NCBI GenBank assembly: GCA_963787835.1
Contig: CAWBEI010000002.1
Location: 64,001-128,000 of the forward strand
DNA length: 64,000 nt
Reading direction: 5' to 3'
Source of the DNA: Ignavibacteriota bacterium
GTDB taxonomy: Bacteria; Bacteroidota; Ignavibacteria; Palsa-1295
Shown in pieces: positions 9,051 to 62,296 of this stretch (positions are counted from its first letter, which is position 1; the number at the start of each line of letters is the position of its first letter). A model generated the notes under the pieces. That model did no database searches, had not been told where the DNA came from, and saw only the letters and a program-made list of their open reading frames with translations. The position numbers were made by a program, and so were the translations under genes.

Positions 9051-9124
9051 GGTGTACAACGGGTTTTAACCCGTTGCTCGTCCCCGCTCAGAATTATGCA
9101 CCGGGTTGAAACCCGGTGTACACC
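9051..9124. repeat. REP-like doublet (GTAC variant)
   Basis: GGTGTACAACGGGTTTTAACCCGTTG ... CACCGGGTTGAAACCCGGTGTACACC; each arm is itself a hairpin. Confidence 0.8.
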
Positions 9125-9129
9125 TATCG

Positions 9130-9403
9130 AGAAAATTTCGGAAAAACTTGACAATGCCATTTTAATTGCGTAGATTGCGATTGCTTTGATGGGCACCTGT
9201 CCGGGGAAAAGATGAAAGATGAAGTATGAAAGATGAAATGGGGAGGCTGCAAGTTCATTGACAAATTGGTGAAATAGTTTTCTTTGCGGAGGAGATTTAT
9301 GAATTCCTAATGCAAAAAAAAATATTTGGAGACACGAACTGGCGAAAATGCTTCAAATTCGAGGGTGATCGGGAACTCGCAAGAAAAAGAAATGGCACCT
9401 ATT
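9130..9403 (+). ncRNA. Candidate non-coding element, copy A (paralog at 60348-60608)
   Basis: TTGACA-17nt-TAGATT (9148-9176), GGCACCT, four heptamers, boxA-like GTTCATTGACAA, and a 35-bp block identical to 60574-60608. Confidence 0.5.
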
Positions 9404-9440
9404 TCTGTAGAAAAAGCACGGGGACGATACCCGGGTGAAA

Positions 9441-10952
9441 TTACCGCCAGGTAATTTTTCTTCCGGCGGCTTTGGCTCGCTCCCAGATCCATCGGAGGAG
9501 TAGCGCCCATCCCTGGCTGATCGACATATCGGATTCGAGCAGGAAGTGCATATCGCGAATATCTTCGTCGGACATCGGAAGCTGCGCCGGAGCCGCAACG
9601 GGATCTCCGCCATTGCCGTCGCCGTGGTTAGGAGAACCGAGATACTCCGCAAGGAGCGCTCGCAAATGCTGATCCATGGCGCTCAATCGTTCACGAAGCG
9701 CGTCATCGGTTTCATACTGCTGAAGGAATTGGATGTGATCGTGAAGCACGGCCAGCTTTTTCGTCAGTTCGGGAGTCAGGAACTCTCTGGCTTCTTCTTC
9801 GAGCGCGAGGACGAGGGCTTCCAGATCGCCGATGGTTTCAGAAGTGGCTCGGAACCCTTCTAACTCGCTTAGGTCATCGATATTGACATAGACGTTTGAA
9901 AGCTGCTCCAGTTCATGGCCGAAGGGAACCCGACGCTGTGCGATCTGCGCTCGGACGCTGGCAAGCATTTGTTCGAGCACATGCCGCCGCGCCGCGCCTT
10001 CGGTGACCCGAAGCTGGTGCTCGATCTCATTCTTTTGGGACTGAAGATCGAGCAGCGTGCGGTCAGTGATCTTGCCGCGCGCGACCATATCGGCGATCTG
10101 GGCATCGCTGGCATGGACTTCGACATGCCCGATCTTGACGGAATTAATAATGATATGCTCATCCATGCTCGCGCGGATCACAGCTTCATCCAATTGCACG
10201 GCTCCATCGGTAATAACGAGGATCTCCGCGCCGGAAAGATGTTCCATTTCCTGAATATCCGAGAGCGCCTGAAGGAGCGCCTTTTGCAAAACCGTTCCCT
10301 CGCCCAAATGGGCGATACGCAATACATATCGCATCAGGGCATCGTAGCTGCCCTGATCGACCGCCGTGTGGAGATCGCCGACGTGATCGTCAAACGTTCT
10401 CAGGCTGATATGTCCAAGCTCTGCTTTATTGCGCTTGAGGAACATATACAGGATCGCTTTTGCAAGATGGATGCGATGGTGCGTCTGCATCGACCGGGAG
10501 GTATCGAAAAGGACATACACTTTTTGCTTGCGCGTATCGAAGGAAAAACTCGATCCGGTATCATCGACCGGCAAGATAACGCCGCTCTTTACGACCGGCA
10601 TCCACAGTTCCCGAAGCACGAGGCGTTCGAGGAATATCTCATCCGGCAGCAAAAATTGATTTGGATAGACACGGGAAACATCATGGTAACTTTTAATGAG
10701 ATCGGCAGCATACCGGTCGCCGGCAGGAAGGTAGCGATGCGGATCCTCGGGTTCCACGGAGGATGGATCCTGCCCATCCATGCCGGGAAGTTTCAGAACA
10801 GAAGAAAGTTTTTGAGAGAGCGCATTCGATTCATCTTCAAGAATGCGTGCAATTTCGAAGACAGCCGTAAAGTCCTTCGGCAGCTTCTCGTAAATATGCG
10901 AGAAGAAGCCGAACTCCTCCATAACCGAAAAAAATGCGCGCTCCGTGGACAT
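9441..10952 (-). CDS. VWA-domain protein (ViaA/CoxE-like partner of a MoxR ATPase)
   Basis: MIDAS motif VLFDTSRSM, GEGT, VITDG; helical C-terminal region. Confidence 0.8.
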   Translation of the reverse strand: MSTERAFFSVMEEFGFFSHIYEKLPKDFTAVFEIARILEDESNALSQKLSSVLKLPGMDGQDPSSVEPEDPHRYLPAGDRYAADLIKSYHDVSRVYPNQFLLPDEIFLERLVLRELWMPVVKSGVILPVDDTGSSFSFDTRKQKVYVLFDTSRSMQTHHRIHLAKAILYMFLKRNKAELGHISLRTFDDHVGDLHTAVDQGSYDALMRYVLRIAHLGEGTVLQKALLQALSDIQEMEHLSGAEILVITDGAVQLDEAVIRASMDEHIIINSVKIGHVEVHASDAQIADMVARGKITDRTLLDLQSQKNEIEHQLRVTEGAARRHVLEQMLASVRAQIAQRRVPFGHELEQLSNVYVNIDDLSELEGFRATSETIGDLEALVLALEEEAREFLTPELTKKLAVLHDHIQFLQQYETDDALRERLSAMDQHLRALLAEYLGSPNHGDGNGGDPVAAPAQLPMSDEDIRDMHFLLESDMSISQGWALLLRWIWERAKAAGRKITWR

Positions 10953-13288: not shown

Positions 13289-13931
13289 AGTCCCGTCAGG
13301 GACGAAAGTGTTCCAGCCCAGCACGTGAGTGCTGGGATAATAATACAAGAATGCCCCAAAGTCCCGCCAGGGACGACAGAATTACCCGAGCGTGTATCTC
13401 TCATCATATTCAATATTATTCGCCTTCAAAAATGCGATATACTCTTCTTGAAAACTTCGTTTCCGATGATGTTCTTCCTGGCCTTCGATATATGCTGTAA
13501 CTTTTCCCACTTGTGAGGTACTCACGCTGAATGCACTATAGCCCTCTTGCCATTCGAAAGACTTGAGTTGTGGAAACGCCTCCGACAGCCATTTCGAAGA
13601 GTTAGCTTTTATAAGCTGAACGATCTTCGACAACGAGATCGTGGATGGTATCTCCATTAGAATATGACAATGATTCTCATGTCCACCTACAGCAATAGGC
13701 GTTGCCTTAGCATTTCGAATGATACCGGCTATGTAATCCCACAAACGAGCACGAATTTCGGGATTTAAGCAATGAACACGATTTTTTGTGCTGAAAATGA
13801 GGTGGATATAGTTGCGAACATAAGAATGAGCCATTTTTCTGTCGTCCCTGACGGGACTTGCTGAAATTTATTGTTTCTTTTTCCCAGGACTCACGTCCTG
13901 GGCTGAAAACACTATCGTCCCTGACGGGACT
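13289..13931. mobile_element. IS200/IS605-type (RAYT-like) element: tnpA flanked by ~93-bp inverted arms of REP hairpins
   Basis: Arms 13289-13381 and 13837-13931 are inverted copies; each has two GTCCCG(T/C)CAGGGAC palindromes and a CCCAG-AC-GTGA-GT-CTGGG hairpin. Confidence 0.9.
13382..13834 (-). CDS. tnpA: IS200/IS605 family Y1 (HUH) transposase
   Basis: HLIFSTKNR, HUH motif NHCH, KANSSKW, WQEGY.AFSVS, YIEGQEEHH. Confidence 0.93.
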   Translation of the reverse strand: MAHSYVRNYIHLIFSTKNRVHCLNPEIRARLWDYIAGIIRNAKATPIAVGGHENHCHILMEIPSTISLSKIVQLIKANSSKWLSEAFPQLKSFEWQEGYSAFSVSTSQVGKVTAYIEGQEEHHRKRSFQEEYIAFLKANNIEYDERYTLG

Positions 13932-57545: not shown

Positions 57546-59141
57546 TTGAATAAACTCTATTTCGGCGACAACCTCGATATTCTCCGCGAGCACATTGCGG
57601 ATGAATCGATTGATCTTATTTATCTAGATCCGCCGTTCAATTCAAAGCGCGATTATTCCGTGCTCTTTAAAACCCCGAAGGGACACGAAAGCGATGCGCA
57701 ACTTCAGGCTTTTCTAGATACTTGGCATTGGACTGAAGAGGCTGAGCGTGAATTTAACGAAATTCTGAATCAGCCTAATACCCAGGTTTCTGAATTGGTT
57801 GTTGCACTTCGAAAATTTCTTGGTGAGAATGACATGATGGCCTATATCACCATGAAGGCGATTCGATTGCTCGAATTGCATCGAGTGCTCAAGCCAACAG
57901 GTTCGATTTATCTCCATTGCGATCCAACCGCAAGCCATTACTTGAGAATTTTACTCGACGCCGTTTTTGGACCAACTCGATTTAGAAATGAAATCACATG
58001 GAAGAGAACGAGCGCGCATAATGACCCCACGCGATATGGGGCGAATACCGATCAAATCCTTTTTTATTCCAAAGGAGATAAGTGGACATGGAATGAAATT
58101 TACATGCCCCACGACGCTGAATATCTGGCAAGGTTTCGTTTCAAAGATCCCGATGGGCGCCGATACATGGACGACAATCTTTCTGCGAAAGGTCTCTCAG
58201 GGGGTGGATACACTTATGAGTATAAAGGAGCAACTTCTCTCTGGCGTGTGCCTTTAACCTCGATGGAAAGGCTCGATGCTGAAAATCGATTACATTTTAC
58301 TAATAAAGGTGGCATACGACTCAAACGATATTTGGATGAGAATAAGGGTGCGCCCCTACAGGCATTATGGGATGACATTTCTCCAATCAATTCCCAAGCT
58401 GCCGAACGACTTGGCTATCCGACGCAAAAACCTCTTGCCTTACTTGAACGAATCATCAAAGCATCATCTAACGAGGGCGATGTGGTACTCGATCCATTCT
58501 GCGGTTGTGGTACAGCGGTTCACGCTGCAGAGAAATTGCATCGGCAATGGATTGGCATAGACATCACGCACCTAGCTATTTCCCTTATCGAGAAGAGGTT
58601 GAAAGACGCATTTCCCGGAATCAAATTCGAAGTTGAGGGCACACCGAAGGATTTGGATGGAGCTAAGGATTTGGCAATTCGAAACAAATACCAATTTCAA
58701 TGGTGGGCTACTTCTCTTGTTAATGCTCAACCGTATCAGGGCAAGAAAAAAGGAGCCGACTCCGGCATTGATGGACTCATCTTTTTCCACGACGATAAAT
58801 CCGGCGCGAAGAAAATCGTGGTATCGGTCAAGGGCGGCGAGAATGTGAATGTTACGATGGTGCGCGATCTGAAAGGTGTCGTTGACCGAGAAAAAGCTTC
58901 GATGGGATTTTTTGTCACGCTGGCCGAACCAACGCGACCGATGCGCGAGGAAGCAGTCTCCGCCGGTTTCTACGACGCGACCCGCTTCGGCTCAGAATAC
59001 CCGAAGCTGCAAATCCTCACCATCGAAGGACTCATGAACGGCACCGAACGCCCCCGATTCCCGGATTTAACGCTGGGCCGCTCCACGTTTAAGCGGGCGG
59101 CCATAGAGGATATGGGGGCGGAGCAGGAGAGGCTGTTGTGA
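57546..59141 (+). CDS. DNA methyltransferase fused to a C-terminal Mrr-like endonuclease domain
   Basis: YLDPPF, YPTQKP, LDPFCGCGT; then GADSGIDG...VSVKGG...VRDLKG. Confidence 0.87.
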   Translation: MNKLYFGDNLDILREHIADESIDLIYLDPPFNSKRDYSVLFKTPKGHESDAQLQAFLDTWHWTEEAEREFNEILNQPNTQVSELVVALRKFLGENDMMAYITMKAIRLLELHRVLKPTGSIYLHCDPTASHYLRILLDAVFGPTRFRNEITWKRTSAHNDPTRYGANTDQILFYSKGDKWTWNEIYMPHDAEYLARFRFKDPDGRRYMDDNLSAKGLSGGGYTYEYKGATSLWRVPLTSMERLDAENRLHFTNKGGIRLKRYLDENKGAPLQALWDDISPINSQAAERLGYPTQKPLALLERIIKASSNEGDVVLDPFCGCGTAVHAAEKLHRQWIGIDITHLAISLIEKRLKDAFPGIKFEVEGTPKDLDGAKDLAIRNKYQFQWWATSLVNAQPYQGKKKGADSGIDGLIFFHDDKSGAKKIVVSVKGGENVNVTMVRDLKGVVDREKASMGFFVTLAEPTRPMREEAVSAGFYDATRFGSEYPKLQILTIEGLMNGTERPRFPDLTLGRSTFKRAAIEDMGAEQERLL

Positions 59142-59149
59142 ATGTTTTA

Positions 59150-59284
59150 TTAAGGGCTAAATAGGCGCGATAATGAATGCTCATTGAATCCATCTAAATA
59201 ACAATCCGTATCTTCCCAATTTACGAACGAATATGTAGCTTTATAAGCTGAAATATCTCGTGGAGTCTTTCTATAGTCAATCAT
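59150..59284 (-). other. 44-aa ORF, probably the frameshifted C-terminus of the SIR2-like protein
   Basis: MIDYRKTP...YSFVNW...DGFNEHSLSRLFSP*; ATGA overlap with the SIR2 stop, next to an A5 run. Confidence 0.5.
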
Positions 59285-60249
59285 TTTTGCTTAGTTTTTG
59301 GACCATGTCGCTCACCTTTTCGGTTCTGAAATTTGTCAACGATATCATATATTACCTGGGTAAGGTAGCGATCATGTGATGCAAGTGAAAAACCAATAAT
59401 ACTAACGCTGTTAGCATAGTACCCTGCGTTAGTGAGTTCTCGCCAAAGCCAACTCAAACGATGAATGTAGCCAAGTTTATGAGTTGATGGGGCTACAATA
59501 ATTGATCCCTCCCAAACGAAATTGTCTGCGCCCAAATACTCCCACATACTGCGTAGCCTCCTAAGCTTAGATAGAGGATTGTCATCTGGTATGGGATCAT
59601 TTGCTAAGCTCGAAAAGACGTAATGACGGTCGTCGCCAAACACAGGGTGCCATTTTGACTCTTGTTGTTCATAATGTGAAATATCAAACCAATCGATAGA
59701 ACCATGCAATTTCAGTACTTCAATTTCAGTCTCGTGTGGTGGATCGTCACTTGAAATACTTTGGTACCAAGGGGCTAACCGGAAAGCCACACCATTTCTT
59801 TCCATTGCTTCTTCAAGGAGCGTGTCATAGTTAAATGTTTCAACAGCGTCGTATTCCTTAAGTTGCTTCACAAAATCATCATAAATCTTCAGGTCGGGTC
59901 TCTCACCATGATCTTGTTTCAATTTTAGGGCAAGGGCAATCAGATTTCTAAGCATTATTTGGGATTCGTTTCCTTCATCCGACCAATGATCTGTTCCCTT
60001 CAGTCTGAGGATATGCTGAACATCTAAATACGAAATGAAATCTTCAAGATTGATCTCGCTCATCTGAGGCTGTCTGCCTGTCGTTTTCCCTATAAATCGA
60101 ATATATAGCTTAAGATCAATACCCAATTTTCCTTCCGTAAGATGCCTAATTTCAGCCAACCGCCAGACTTCGCCAAAAAGCTCATTTCCAAGCGGTAACC
60201 CAGCTGGCTTCGAAAATCCTGCACCAAGAATAAATAGTCTCATTGTCAT
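59281..60249 (-). CDS. SIR2-like (SIR2_2) NAD-binding protein, possible defence effector
   Basis: ILGAGFS..AGLP, TFNYD.LLE, LKLHGSIDW, IIGFSL; AT-rich. Confidence 0.82.
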   Translation of the reverse strand: MTMRLFILGAGFSKPAGLPLGNELFGEVWRLAEIRHLTEGKLGIDLKLYIRFIGKTTGRQPQMSEINLEDFISYLDVQHILRLKGTDHWSDEGNESQIMLRNLIALALKLKQDHGERPDLKIYDDFVKQLKEYDAVETFNYDTLLEEAMERNGVAFRLAPWYQSISSDDPPHETEIEVLKLHGSIDWFDISHYEQQESKWHPVFGDDRHYVFSSLANDPIPDDNPLSKLRRLRSMWEYLGADNFVWEGSIIVAPSTHKLGYIHRLSWLWRELTNAGYYANSVSIIGFSLASHDRYLTQVIYDIVDKFQNRKGERHGPKTKQK

Positions 60250-60347: not shown

Positions 60348-60608
60348 AGAAAATTTCGAATTTCGTGGCGGGCGGGAAAAGTGTCGTATATTGCGAGTGA
60401 GATAATAGGCACCTATATCAATTACGAAGTAAGAATTAATAATTAAGAATGGGTGCTCAGTGGCTCATTGAAAATGGAAGCGATGGATTTCTTTATGAAC
60501 GAGTCCTTTGAGAAAACGGATTTCGCTTTTCCTTCAGAACAAACGTCGAAAACAGCTTGGAAACGAGGGTGTGTCGGGAACTCGCAAGAAAAAGAAATGG
60601 CACCTATT
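60348..60608 (+). ncRNA. Candidate non-coding element, copy B (paralog at 9130-9403)
   Basis: AGAAAATTTCG, CGTATATTGCGA, GGCACCTAT, four heptamers, GCTCATTGAAAA, identical 35-mer at 60574-60608. Confidence 0.5.
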
Positions 60609-60640
60609 GCCTTAGGAAAGGGGTTGCATGACTTTCAAAA

Positions 60641-62296
60641 ATGCTATCACGCCGCAATAGATATTTGCTCGCCGTTCTTTCCGGGCTGTTGCTCGGTCTT
60701 GCCTTTCCGCCTACGGGGCTTGGCGGAGGGTTGCTGGCATTTGTTGCGCTGGTACCGCTTTTGGTCGCGCTGGAGAATGGCACCCGGTTACGGGAGGCAT
60801 TCAAGCTCGGCTGGGTCGCGATGTTCGTGCTTGGCCTGGTCTCGAATTACTGGGTCGGCGGGTGGAAGTCGATGGGTGATGTCGATCCCTTCCTGATGGT
60901 CGGCGGGGTACTGCTGGCGATCGTGCATCCGTTCTTCCTGGTAGTTCCCTGGCTGTTGTATGATTCGGTTCGCCGGCGGTTCGGGCGAAGGGCTGCGCTG
61001 TACTCGCTGCCCATCTTTCAGGGGGGCTTCGAGTATGCGCATTCGTTCGGGGATCTTTCCTATCCCTGGCTGAACCTGTACAACACGCAGACGTACAATC
61101 TGGCGTTCGATCAGTTCATTGAAATTTCGGGGCCGTATTTGCTGAGCATGGTGATTGTGCTGGTGAATGTGGAAGTTTTTCAGATGTTCTTTACCAGTGG
61201 ACTCAATGGACGGGGTGGACGAAAGTGGCATTTGGTGACTTTGGTACTCTTGGTTTGTATTCCCTATCTTTATGGTTTGCACGCCTTGGGTCAAAAAGAA
61301 GATTCGCGTTCCTCGCTTCGGGTGACGATCGTTCAGCCGAACATCGACCCGTGGGCGAAATGGAGTTCCGATGAGGACCGAATACTCGATACAAACTTCG
61401 AAGCCACGGTGACGGCGATCCGCGCTAACCATGATTCGACGGATCTGATCGTATGGCCGGAAACAGCGATCACGTTCTACATTACTTCCCCTGCAAAGGG
61501 ATTTGAAATGGCAGAGCTAAATAAATTTGTATCCTCGATGCACCATGCGCTGCTGACGGGTTTTCCAGACCGGCAGGATTATGTGCAAGGTCAGGATTCC
61601 ATCCCAAGCGATGCGGTTCCCGTTGGGATCGGCGGTATCTACTACCGAAGCTGGAATGCTGCGATGATGCTCTATCAAGCGCCGGATGGAACCATGCACC
61701 GTCAGGCGTATCACAAGCAAAAGCTTGTGCCGCTTGGGGAGCATATTCCATTCGTGCAATACTTCCCAATCCTGGGCAAGTGGTTTCAATGGAGCGTTGG
61801 GATCGGAAGCTGGAATATCGGGGAGGGTTACGAGCCACTTTCGCTTCCGATGCCACAGCAGCATGATACGCTGGAGATTTCGCCGGCGATCTGCTATGAA
61901 TCCGTGTATCCGAGCTTCATACGGAATTTTGTGGATCACGGGGCGAACATGCTGGCGGTTATCACGAACGATGGATGGTATGGCCGAAGCTCGGGGCCGT
62001 ATCAACACGAACAATTTGCAGTGCTGCGCGCCATCGAGAACCGGCGATGGGTAGTGCGATGCGCCAATACGGGAGTCTCCACGATGATCGATGACCGTGG
62101 GCGATATATAAAATCGCTCCCGCTTTTTGTGTCGGGTTCCATCACGGAGCGGGTTCCACTCATCGAGCGCAAAACGCTCTATGTGCAATGGGGGGATTAT
62201 ATTGCGATCCCAGCGATGATCTATTCGATCATTGTTCTTATCGTAGCATTGGCACGTAGGATCATGAGAAGATTTTCAAAACCATCGGCAGGGTGA
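60641..62296 (+). CDS. lnt: Apolipoprotein N-acyltransferase
   Basis: VQPNI, VWPETA, KQKLVPLGE, ICYES, TNDGWYG, RAIENRR, NTGVS. Confidence 0.95.
   Translation: MLSRRNRYLLAVLSGLLLGLAFPPTGLGGGLLAFVALVPLLVALENGTRLREAFKLGWVAMFVLGLVSNYWVGGWKSMGDVDPFLMVGGVLLAIVHPFFLVVPWLLYDSVRRRFGRRAALYSLPIFQGGFEYAHSFGDLSYPWLNLYNTQTYNLAFDQFIEISGPYLLSMVIVLVNVEVFQMFFTSGLNGRGGRKWHLVTLVLLVCIPYLYGLHALGQKEDSRSSLRVTIVQPNIDPWAKWSSDEDRILDTNFEATVTAIRANHDSTDLIVWPETAITFYITSPAKGFEMAELNKFVSSMHHALLTGFPDRQDYVQGQDSIPSDAVPVGIGGIYYRSWNAAMMLYQAPDGTMHRQAYHKQKLVPLGEHIPFVQYFPILGKWFQWSVGIGSWNIGEGYEPLSLPMPQQHDTLEISPAICYESVYPSFIRNFVDHGANMLAVITNDGWYGRSSGPYQHEQFAVLRAIENRRWVVRCANTGVSTMIDDRGRYIKSLPLFVSGSITERVPLIERKTLYVQWGDYIAIPAMIYSIIVLIVALARRIMRRFSKPSAG

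What the first reader, a model, noticed from the sequence alone, without database searches (positions are those of the whole stretch)
9130..9403. Unrecognised ~270-bp non-coding element present twice: promoter - GGCACCT - 4 heptamers - boxA-like - identical 35-mer (copy A)
Seen: 9130-9403 and 60348-60608 share ordered blocks at near-equal spacing. These are AGAAAATTTCG; CGTA(G/T)ATTGCGA (-10 box; copy A has TTGACA-17-TAGATT); GGCACCT exactly 21 nt after the -10 start in both; four tandem heptamers of different sequence (AAAGATG-type vs AATTAAG-type); G(T/C)TCATTGA(C/A)AA; CGAAAA..GCTT..CGAGGGTG; and a perfect 35-bp match TCGGGAACTCGCAAGAAAAAGAAATGGCACCTATT, which repeats GGCACCT. The spacers have diverged, and a 1-nt indel beside the 35-mer breaks any shared frame, so the conservation is not coding. 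Copy A points into the 3' end of a convergent gene, so it cannot be an mRNA leader. Both copies sit divergently upstream of an AT-rich accessory gene. Established: boxA recruits NusB/NusE antitermination in rRNA and some CRISPR leaders. Inference: a multicopy ~220-nt ncRNA, an orphan antiterminated leader, or a recombination-site-bounded (GGCACCT direct repeat) element marking cargo insertion sites.
Basis: partly seen in the sequence, partly recalled or inferred. Interest (0 to 1): 0.85.

Follow-up and report, generated by a model that had tools for sequence, protein, structure and literature searches.

The report
SOS-promoter caps on gene islands
This bacterium carries about 70 copies of a ~300-base DNA element, typically at one end of a foreign-gene island and pointing outward; each copy is likely a DNA-damage-inducible promoter held shut by the LexA repressor at two helically phased sites, is predicted to make termination-resistant transcripts, and likely serves as an anchor for swapping island genes.

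Summary
The blocks and coordinates are right, but the element is not present twice. The genome holds 54 copies of this type, 18 of a sister type, and a related lexA leader. GGCACCT is half of a family-specific LexA box (RTGC-N8-GCAC): it lies at 25 of 25 family lexA promoters, 12 of 20 recA promoters, and before ssb, dinB and recQ. The boxA-like block equals the 16S rRNA leader boxA of 14 of 14 family genomes. No RNA structure is conserved. Instead, spacing between the two LexA sites varies in ~11-bp steps, a DNA-level signature. Copies cap low-GC islands on one side only (31 of 31 point outward). The same cargo plus element sits at different core loci, and empty sites lack GGCACC and target duplications. 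Best reading: a lexA-leader-derived, LexA-looped, Nus-antiterminated outward promoter that likely doubles as a one-sided recombination anchor for cargo exchange. Binding, transcription and the mobilising route are untested. The scan noted an analogous SOS-promoter array in another genome (e1-5260253, unchecked).

The parts
9130..9414 (+). Copy A of the type I element (promoter to end of the 3' operator)
9148..9176 (+). Copy A sigma70-type promoter TTGACA-17-TAGATT (10 of 12); A/T tract 9130-9140 upstream
   Evidence: activity inferred
9181..9198 (+). Copy A 5' predicted LexA operator (TTGC-N8-GCAC-CT) over the expected start site
   Evidence: same box and position at 25 of 25 family lexA promoters
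9208..9235 (+). Copy A heptamer module (AAAGATG type); exchangeable passenger
   Evidence: swapped among near-identical copies; follows the 5' box in 32 and the 3' box in 10 of 52 copies
9253..9264 (+). Copy A boxA GTTCATTGACAA
   Evidence: same motif in the 16S leader; 43 of 52 copies
9369..9414 (+). Copy A conserved 3' block: 35-mer with half-sites GCAA 9379, GCAC 9395, GAAA 9410; 5'-to-3' GCAC spacing 202 bp
9057..9121 (.). Two inverted REP-like hairpins just upstream of copy A (flank, not part of the element)
   Evidence: sequence; further copies in the genome
7959..8942 (-). Cargo of copy A: 327-aa gene without Pfam match, GC 0.45; absent between dnaN and the vWA gene in G006 and G014
9441..10952 (-). 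Core flank of copy A: vWA gene, convergent
60348..60619 (+). Copy B of the type I element
60387..60392 (+). Copy B -10 box TATATT (no canonical -35)
60397..60414 (+). Copy B 5' predicted LexA operator (GTGA-N8-GCAC-CT)
60420..60447 (+). Copy B heptamer module (AATTAAG type)
60463..60474 (+). Copy B boxA GCTCATTGAAAA
60574..60619 (+). Copy B conserved 3' block: half-sites GCAA 60584, GCAC 60600, GAAA 60616; spacing 191 bp
57546..60249 (.). Cargo of copy B: N6/N4 methyltransferase-Mrr fusion (57546-59141 +) and SIR2-like gene (59281-60249 -)
   Evidence: other cargo before lnt in G014 and G002
60641..62296 (+). Core flank of copy B: lnt, co-oriented, start 32 bp after the mapped element end

Best explanation
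The element is one of 54 copies (plus 18 of a sister type) of a ~300-bp DNA module that typically caps one end of an accessory gene island and points outward; it is likely an amplified lexA promoter-leader, likely held shut by LexA at two helically phased operators, predicted to fire a boxA-antiterminated transcript into the flanking core gene after DNA damage, and likely used as a one-sided recombination anchor for cargo exchange. Shown: copy number, polarity, motif identity with the lexA/recA/dinB/ssb promoter box and with the rRNA boxA, ~11-bp quantised spacing, shared modules with the lexA leader, the same cargo-plus-element unit at different core loci. Inferred: LexA binding (about 0.85); boxA loading NusB-S10 against Rho (about 0.8); a LexA-bridged loop or phased nucleoprotein complex over the 146-240 bp between operators (about 0.5); spread by RecA-dependent recombination in the conserved 3' block with an illegitimate or REP-mediated joint at the far end of the cargo, which would replace old cargo and leave the core gene intact (about 0.5). 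Where the core gene is co-oriented (37 of 51), the module would also restart transcription behind an AT-rich insertion.
For: LexA box: (G/A)TGCT-N6-RGCAC plus tandem boxes at a 16-bp period in 25 of 25 family lexA promoters, 0 of 5 other-family ones; 12 of 20 family and 0 of 10 other recA promoters; before ssb, two dinB, recQ/ruvA, a radical SAM and an alkylation-repair gene in G000; the -10-plus-box pattern in 24 of 24 family relatives, 0 of 16 other families, reversed control 0. The 3' end keeps G at +16 in 98% of 106 copies across five free bases. boxA: 14 of 14 family and 20 of 24 total 16S leaders; 43 of 52 copies here, 43 of 54 in relatives, 0 of those 54 antisense; variation almost confined to three columns; nusB and rho present. 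Phasing: period 11.2 bp, R 0.64, n=50 of 52, 0 of 3000 null resamples; 35 distinct lengths R 0.50, 1 of 3000; same phase in 52 relative copies; three segments vary in 10-11 bp steps while their sequences are only ~65-80% alike. Polarity: GC lower upstream in 50 of 51 copies, 42 of 52 in relatives; 31 of 168 low-GC runs have an element at an edge, 31 of 31 outward, none at both edges. Mobility: 91% identity over 1.46 kb of cargo and the element up to GGCACCTATT at two different loci (G000 C2:1819284, L088); three G000 paralogs likewise; different cargo before lnt in three genomes; species-specific 3' variants. Origin: a sister-type module profile scores 27-44 bits on six lexA leaders.
Against: No binding, transcript or recombination was observed. 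G000 recA has only a weak box and uvrA, uvrB-type, recN, ruvB and ruvC show none; 8 of 20 family recA promoters lack it. The type I 3' segment matches lexA leaders only weakly (13 bits at best), so the direction of descent is open. Best period in relatives is 10.5-11.05 and G006 alone is not significant (p 0.16); sister-type spacings are not in one phase; ATGAA/TTCAT motifs are not phased to the 5' box overall. Copies are related, so the tests overstate. Many elements in G003 and G013 lack a full 3' GGCACC. Homologous anchoring does not explain how new sites are first seeded: 28 of 58 relative loci have no box at the matching G000 site. 14 of 51 copies face a convergent gene, where a restart promoter is of no use. 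137 of 168 low-GC runs have no element.
Confidence: 0.5

Rival explanations
1. The element is the fixed end of a non-autonomous, one-ended mobile unit: a HUH (RAYT/Y1) or tyrosine recombinase acts at the conserved 3' block, the phased sites form its accessory complex, and LexA occupancy gates the site until DNA damage.
For: Strict polarity and no fixed left end; no target duplication; similarity between transposed units ends at GGCACCTATT; 10 Y1 transposase hits; REP-like hairpins within 220 bp upstream in 10 of 52 copies against 28 of 532 intergenic regions; high site turnover; the unchecked analogue e1-5260253 is reported as an island landing site.
Against: No Y2 (IS91/ISCR) transposase in G000 or the four other expanded genomes; only three tyrosine recombinases, none beside an element; no recombinase among 112 of 144 listed cargo proteins scanned; no XerD arm (at most 6 of 11); empty sites hold no core sequence.
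Confidence: 0.25
2. The copies are mainly a titration network: 70 DNA platforms soak up LexA (and DnaA), and the boxA-bearing transcripts made in SOS would draw NusB-S10 away from the single 16S leader, slowing ribosome synthesis; position at island ends is secondary.
For: 43 boxA copies against one 16S leader; several operator half-sites per copy; 9 of 38 perfect TTATCCACA boxes lie at type I copies, 0.37 expected; boxA kept in 13 of 14 convergent copies; an element lies upstream of the 16S leader in G000, G002, G003 and G014.
Against: Does not explain the one-sided link to cargo or co-movement with cargo; copy number ranges from 1 to 58 among family genomes with near-identical LexA; no terminator-like structure in 48 of 52 copies, so no discrete RNA is defined.
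Confidence: 0.15
3. A structured multicopy small RNA.
For: A promoter in 52 of 54 copies; a RIBOSUM-scored fold can be drawn.
Against: Default consensus folding gives 0 pairs; mean z -0.75 sense against -0.61 antisense on 26 of 52 copies; when boxA position 2 changes T to C its partner stays A in 13 of 13 copies; length changes come in DNA helical turns.
Confidence: 0.07

Closest known systems
Phage lambda early promoters (pL/OL/nutL, pR/OR/nutR) (recalled, no call)
   Same: S24-family repressor on tandem operators over the promoter, release by RecA, boxA shortly after the start, repressor-bridged looping between operator clusters.
   Different: Chromosomal, about 70 dispersed copies, host LexA, no N protein or boxB found, loop of 146-240 bp, no match in viral contigs.
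rrn and CRISPR leader boxA antitermination (PMC13753749, passages seen)
   Same: Same boxA as the family's 16S leader; long untranslated leader; nusB and rho present.
   Different: Under a LexA box, at island ends, reading into protein genes in either orientation.
Integrons (attI/attC, LexA-controlled integrase) (recalled)
   Same: SOS link; exchange of defence, toxin-antitoxin and secreted-protein cargo at fixed chromosomal places.
   Different: No integrase beside the sites, no arrays, no attC palindrome, promoter points away from the cargo, sites dispersed.
Promoter-bearing miniature elements (Correia, ERIC, RUP, REP/BIME) (recalled)
   Same: Short, non-coding, intergenic, species-specific concerted evolution, portable promoter.
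   Different: No terminal inverted repeats or target duplication; directional; travels with kilobases of cargo on one side.
LexA boxes of Bacteroidetes (GGA-N5-TCC recalled; CTAA-N5-TTAG seen in PMC8565304 passages) and Balneolaeota (TTACACATATTTTWTACATA, PMC7739468 passages)
   Same: Lineage-specific SOS box at lexA, recA, Y-family polymerases and a radical SAM gene.
   Different: Different motif (RTGC-N8-GCAC in tandem 16-bp units); PMC8565304 main text has no occurrence of Ignavibacteri, Chlorobi, Kapabacteria or GCAC.
Intergenic heptamer repeats (PMC4679880, abstract and outline seen)
   Same: Tandem 7-mers of 2-6 copies in intergenic DNA.
   Different: Here an exchangeable passenger directly after the LexA boxes, of other sequence.

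Membership tests
LexA operator (SOS box) | Conserved at lexA promoters of the clade, overlapping the promoter | tested here: met
   25 of 25 family, 0 of 5 others
LexA operator (SOS box) | Present before canonical SOS genes | tested here: met
   recA 12 of 20; dinB x2, ssb, recQ/ruvA, radical SAM; not found before uvrA, recN, ruvB, ruvC in G000
LexA operator (SOS box) | Bound by LexA, released on DNA damage | not testable with these tools
   needs EMSA or ChIP
boxA (Nus antitermination) | Same motif in rRNA leaders, sense strand only | tested here: met
   14 of 14 family 16S leaders; 0 antisense in 54 relative copies
boxA (Nus antitermination) | NusB-S10 binding and Rho bypass | not testable with these tools
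   nusB and rho genes present
Structured ncRNA family | Rfam match | tested here: not met
   0 matches at gathering score
Structured ncRNA family | Conserved fold with compensatory changes | tested here: not met
MITE / IS end | Terminal inverted repeats and target-site duplication | tested here: not met
   ends are direct half-sites; no duplication at empty versus filled sites, though genomes are ~80% alike
Integron att site | Integron integrase adjacent; core site retained at the empty locus | tested here: not met
IS91/ISCR one-ended rolling-circle element | Y2 transposase in the genome | tested here: not met
   0 in G000, G002, G006, G009, G014; 1 of 25 genomes
IS91/ISCR one-ended rolling-circle element | Cargo on one side, variable far end, no duplication | tested here: met
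Xer dif/cer/psi site | XerD arm 6-8 bp from the XerC-like arm | tested here: not met
   best 6 of 11 against a recalled arm in 52 copies
REPIN/RAYT unit | Element bounded by REP hairpins | tested here: inconclusive
   REP-like upstream 10 of 52, downstream 1 of 52, background 28 of 532

The most novel reading that the evidence does not exclude
A distributed, integrase-free counterpart of the integron: about 70 LexA-looped, antiterminated platforms, bred from the cell's own lexA leader, open together on DNA damage, and their transcription and shared 3' block trigger one-sided exchange of defence and surface-gene cargo among island sites, coupling genome shuffling to the SOS response.
Probability: 0.25. 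Interest if true: 0.92.

Novelty: categorically new. Interest (0 to 1): 0.76.

Why it matters
It gives a likely new SOS box for an uncultured Ignavibacteriota family and shows a regulator's own promoter-leader amplified into a genome-wide repeat. If the model holds, host LexA and Nus factors control where accessory genes land and when they are reshuffled, without a dedicated integrase. The 11-bp quantised spacing across 100 natural variants makes LexA-mediated looping, known for its phage relatives (recalled), directly testable. The copy number also bears on how operator decoys set the SOS threshold.

Tried and rejected
Rfam and tRNA scans: nothing. RNA structure: rejected. Coding potential: frame-breaking indels among copies. 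GGCACCT as att core or circle junction: empty sites lack it; 'goes back' joints in public contigs are explained by G000 copies whose 3' box is followed by the same heptamer module, so they show no circle. Expression: the one RNA run (X7, share 0.07, contigs only) shows raised depth on the element, but so does DNA run X6, as expected for a repeat; no evidence either way. No reads were laid on copy B. Xer site, Y2 transposase, adjacent integrase: not found. Shared left end of cargo: none visible by eye in 52 junctions. AA/TT periodicity inside the element: none. Global phasing of ATGAA/TTCAT motifs: weak. Second internal promoter from the TTGACA inside boxA: spacer to a -10 not conserved. Direction of gain or loss at two empty sites: flanks unlinked in G001, G005 and G010, so unresolved. 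Viral contigs: 0 matches. Ten literature searches listed no paper on such an element or on this motif; the library lacks most subscription journals and no supplements were read.

Full report
Observation. The element is not a pair. A profile of its last 81 bases finds 62 hits in the 3.57-Mb genome, 54 of them at 45 bits or more, and none in the reversed genome; 52 of the 54 have the -10 box and the 5' GGCACC. A sister type with the same promoter and a GTTCATTAAATGAC module adds 18 copies. An exact 3' pattern occurs in 5 of 25 genomes searched, all of one genus; in the 185,579-species collection it gave 33 matches, all in records titled Ignavibacteriota or Ignavibacteriae MAGs, and none in viral contigs. 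Rfam gives nothing.

GGCACCT is likely a LexA operator half. The same -10 box followed by ATRGGCACC precedes ssb, two Y-family polymerases, recQ/ruvA, a radical SAM gene and an alkylation-repair gene, and lies twice before lexA (TIGR00498). In 25 of 25 family lexA promoters the site reads (G/A)TGCT-N6-RGCAC, followed by two more boxes at a 16-bp period; 0 of 5 lexA promoters from other families have it. It lies before 12 of 20 family and 0 of 10 other recA genes. The -10-plus-box pattern occurs in 24 of 24 family relatives (1 to 47 copies; 58 in G000) and 0 of 16 other families. Against: G000 recA has a weak version, and uvrA, recN, ruvB and ruvC have none (genes picked by recalled motifs). 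The 3' end of the element carries half-sites at -16, 0 and +16, with G at +16 in 98% of 106 copies across five free bases. Binding is inferred, not shown. The motif differs from those in PMC8565304 and PMC7739468 (passages seen).

The boxA call is right. The single 16S leader of G000 has GTTCATTGAAA about 410 bases before the 16S start, as do 14 of 14 family genomes with a 16S and 20 of 24 genomes in all. The motif is in 43 of 52 copies here and 43 of 54 in relatives, never antisense in the latter, with variation almost confined to three columns and random flanks. nusB and rho are present. BoxA loads NusB-S10 and blocks Rho in E. coli, lies before CRISPR arrays and suhB, and binds NusB in Bacillus (PMC13753749, passages seen). 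A terminator-like hairpin was found in only 4 of 52 copies, so read-through into the neighbour is predicted.

It is constrained as DNA, not as folded RNA. Consensus folding of 44 copies gives no pairs; single-sequence z-scores average -0.75 sense and -0.61 antisense on 26 of 52 copies; the one attractive stem shows no compensation in 13 of 13 informative copies. The distance between the two GCAC half-sites clusters at 146, 158, 169, 180, 191, 202, 213, 226 and 235 bp: period 11.2 bp, R 0.64 for 50 of 52 copies (two with internal boxes, 267 and 303 bp, left out), 0 of 3000 smoothed resamples; 35 distinct lengths give R 0.50, 1 of 3000. In 52 of 54 relative copies the phase at 11.2 bp is the same (0.07 against 0.06), the best period is 10.6, and G006 alone is not significant. 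Three segments vary in steps of one turn: 38 or 48/49 bp, 33/34 or 44/45 bp, and 39, 61, 72, 84, 94, 106, 117, 128 bp, although same-length spacers are only 65-82% alike on average. Copies are related, so these tests overstate. A helical repeat near 11 bp is what in vivo looping studies report (recalled). Sister-type spacings are not in one phase. Perfect DnaA boxes are enriched: 9 of 38 at type I copies, 0.37 expected; their role is unexplained.

Position. The gene upstream is low in GC (median 0.46) and the gene downstream is core-like (0.54; genome 0.50); upstream DNA is lower in GC in 50 of 51 copies and 42 of 52 in relatives. Of 168 low-GC runs, 31 have an element at an edge, all 31 point outward, none has two. 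The downstream gene is co-oriented in 37, convergent in 14, absent in 1. Cargo includes restriction-modification, toxin-antitoxin, SIR2, TIR, STAND and secreted proteins; no recombinase among 112 of 144 listed proteins scanned. At copy A, dnaN and the vWA gene are about 130 bp apart in G006 and G014, and hold other cargo plus an element in G009. At copy B, lnt is preceded by an element with other cargo in G014 and G002, a 3' half in G009, a lone box in G006 and nothing in G001. Of 58 relative loci whose downstream flank mapped to G000, 17 have a type I copy there, 13 only boxes (one a contig-edge artefact) and 28 nothing. Empty sites have no GGCACC and no duplication, while filled ones hold 2-4.5 kb of cargo ending in the element; gain and loss cannot be told apart. 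The same cargo and element occur at different core loci, alike up to GGCACCTATT and unlike beyond; the heptamer module is swapped among otherwise near-identical copies. Each species has its own dominant 3' variant.

Origin. The lexA leader has the same promoter layout, GGCGAA block, GTTCAT module and second box. A sister-type profile scores 27-44 bits on the lexA leaders of G000, G003, G005, G006, G009 and G014; the type I segment scores 13 bits at best. G003, G013 and G020 have their own multicopy families with the same promoter and box, many without a full 3' box. The architecture is family-wide and the sequences are lineage-specific.

Mechanism. Best reading (0.5): LexA holds an outward promoter shut from two phased operator clusters, likely by a loop; DNA damage frees it and boxA makes the transcript resistant to Rho; the conserved 3' block serves as a one-sided anchor through which incoming cargo-plus-element DNA replaces old cargo. 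This accounts for polarity, mosaic copies and concerted evolution, but not for the first seeding of new sites. The main rival (0.25) is a one-ended mobile unit served by an unidentified HUH or tyrosine recombinase: ten Y1 hits and REP-like hairpins upstream of 10 of 52 copies are leads, but there is no Y2 transposase, XerD arm or adjacent integrase. A titration role for LexA, DnaA or NusB (0.15) and a structured RNA (0.07) follow.

Novelty. It works like a lambda early promoter with its operators and nut site, and like an integron in linking SOS to cargo exchange (both recalled), but fails the membership tests for Rfam families, MITEs, integrons, ISCR and Xer sites. Ten literature searches listed no description; the library is incomplete and supplements were not read. 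The scan's note e1-5260253 describes an analogous SOS-promoter array with phased repeats at island landing sites in another genome; it was not checked here and is not independent support. Interest 0.76.

Noticed in passing
G000:C6:57595-58440 (L012) and L013-L036: Likely new SOS box RTGCT-N6-RGCAC in three tandem 16-bp units at lexA of the whole family; other families of the class show other palindromes (for example TAG...CTA in L037, L038).
   Followed up: yes
G000:C4:405860-406480 (L279), L277, L280, L274: An element lies upstream of the 16S rRNA leader in G000, G002, G014 and G003; the 16S is followed by a terminator-like hairpin and the 23S lies on another contig (C6), so the rRNA genes look unlinked.
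   Followed up: partly
G000 type I copies, for example C2:583759; also C5:4155 and C7:3648: Perfect DnaA boxes inside or beside elements and near a dinB promoter; no cluster of three boxes within 400 bp was found in the genome, and dnaA (C2:1019169) is far from dnaN.
   Followed up: partly
G000:C2:2470-12752 (L058): Large inverted duplication with two outward SOS-box promoters, BrnT-like genes and a boxA-like motif on each arm.
   Followed up: no
G000:C2:1212089-1215466: 1125-aa gene with a Cas9-like N-terminus (recalled motif) directly upstream of an element.
   Followed up: no
window 13382-13834 (-): Y1/IS200-type transposase (RAYT-like) inside the MoxR-vWA cluster.
   Followed up: no
window 57546-59141 and G000:C4:132065: Methyltransferase-Mrr fusion recurring as cargo in several genomes, one copy with its own SOS box.
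   Followed up: partly
L036 (G006 lexA); G014 and G001 recA: Frameshifts in essential-looking genes, probably assembly errors.
   Followed up: no
G020 loci L200, L203, L212, L218: A different multicopy SOS-promoter family with an extra box upstream of the -35 and its own conserved blocks.
   Followed up: partly
window 19512 (G000:C2:83512): boxA-like motif inside the ATP synthase gene cluster, upstream of the alpha-subunit-like gene.
   Followed up: no
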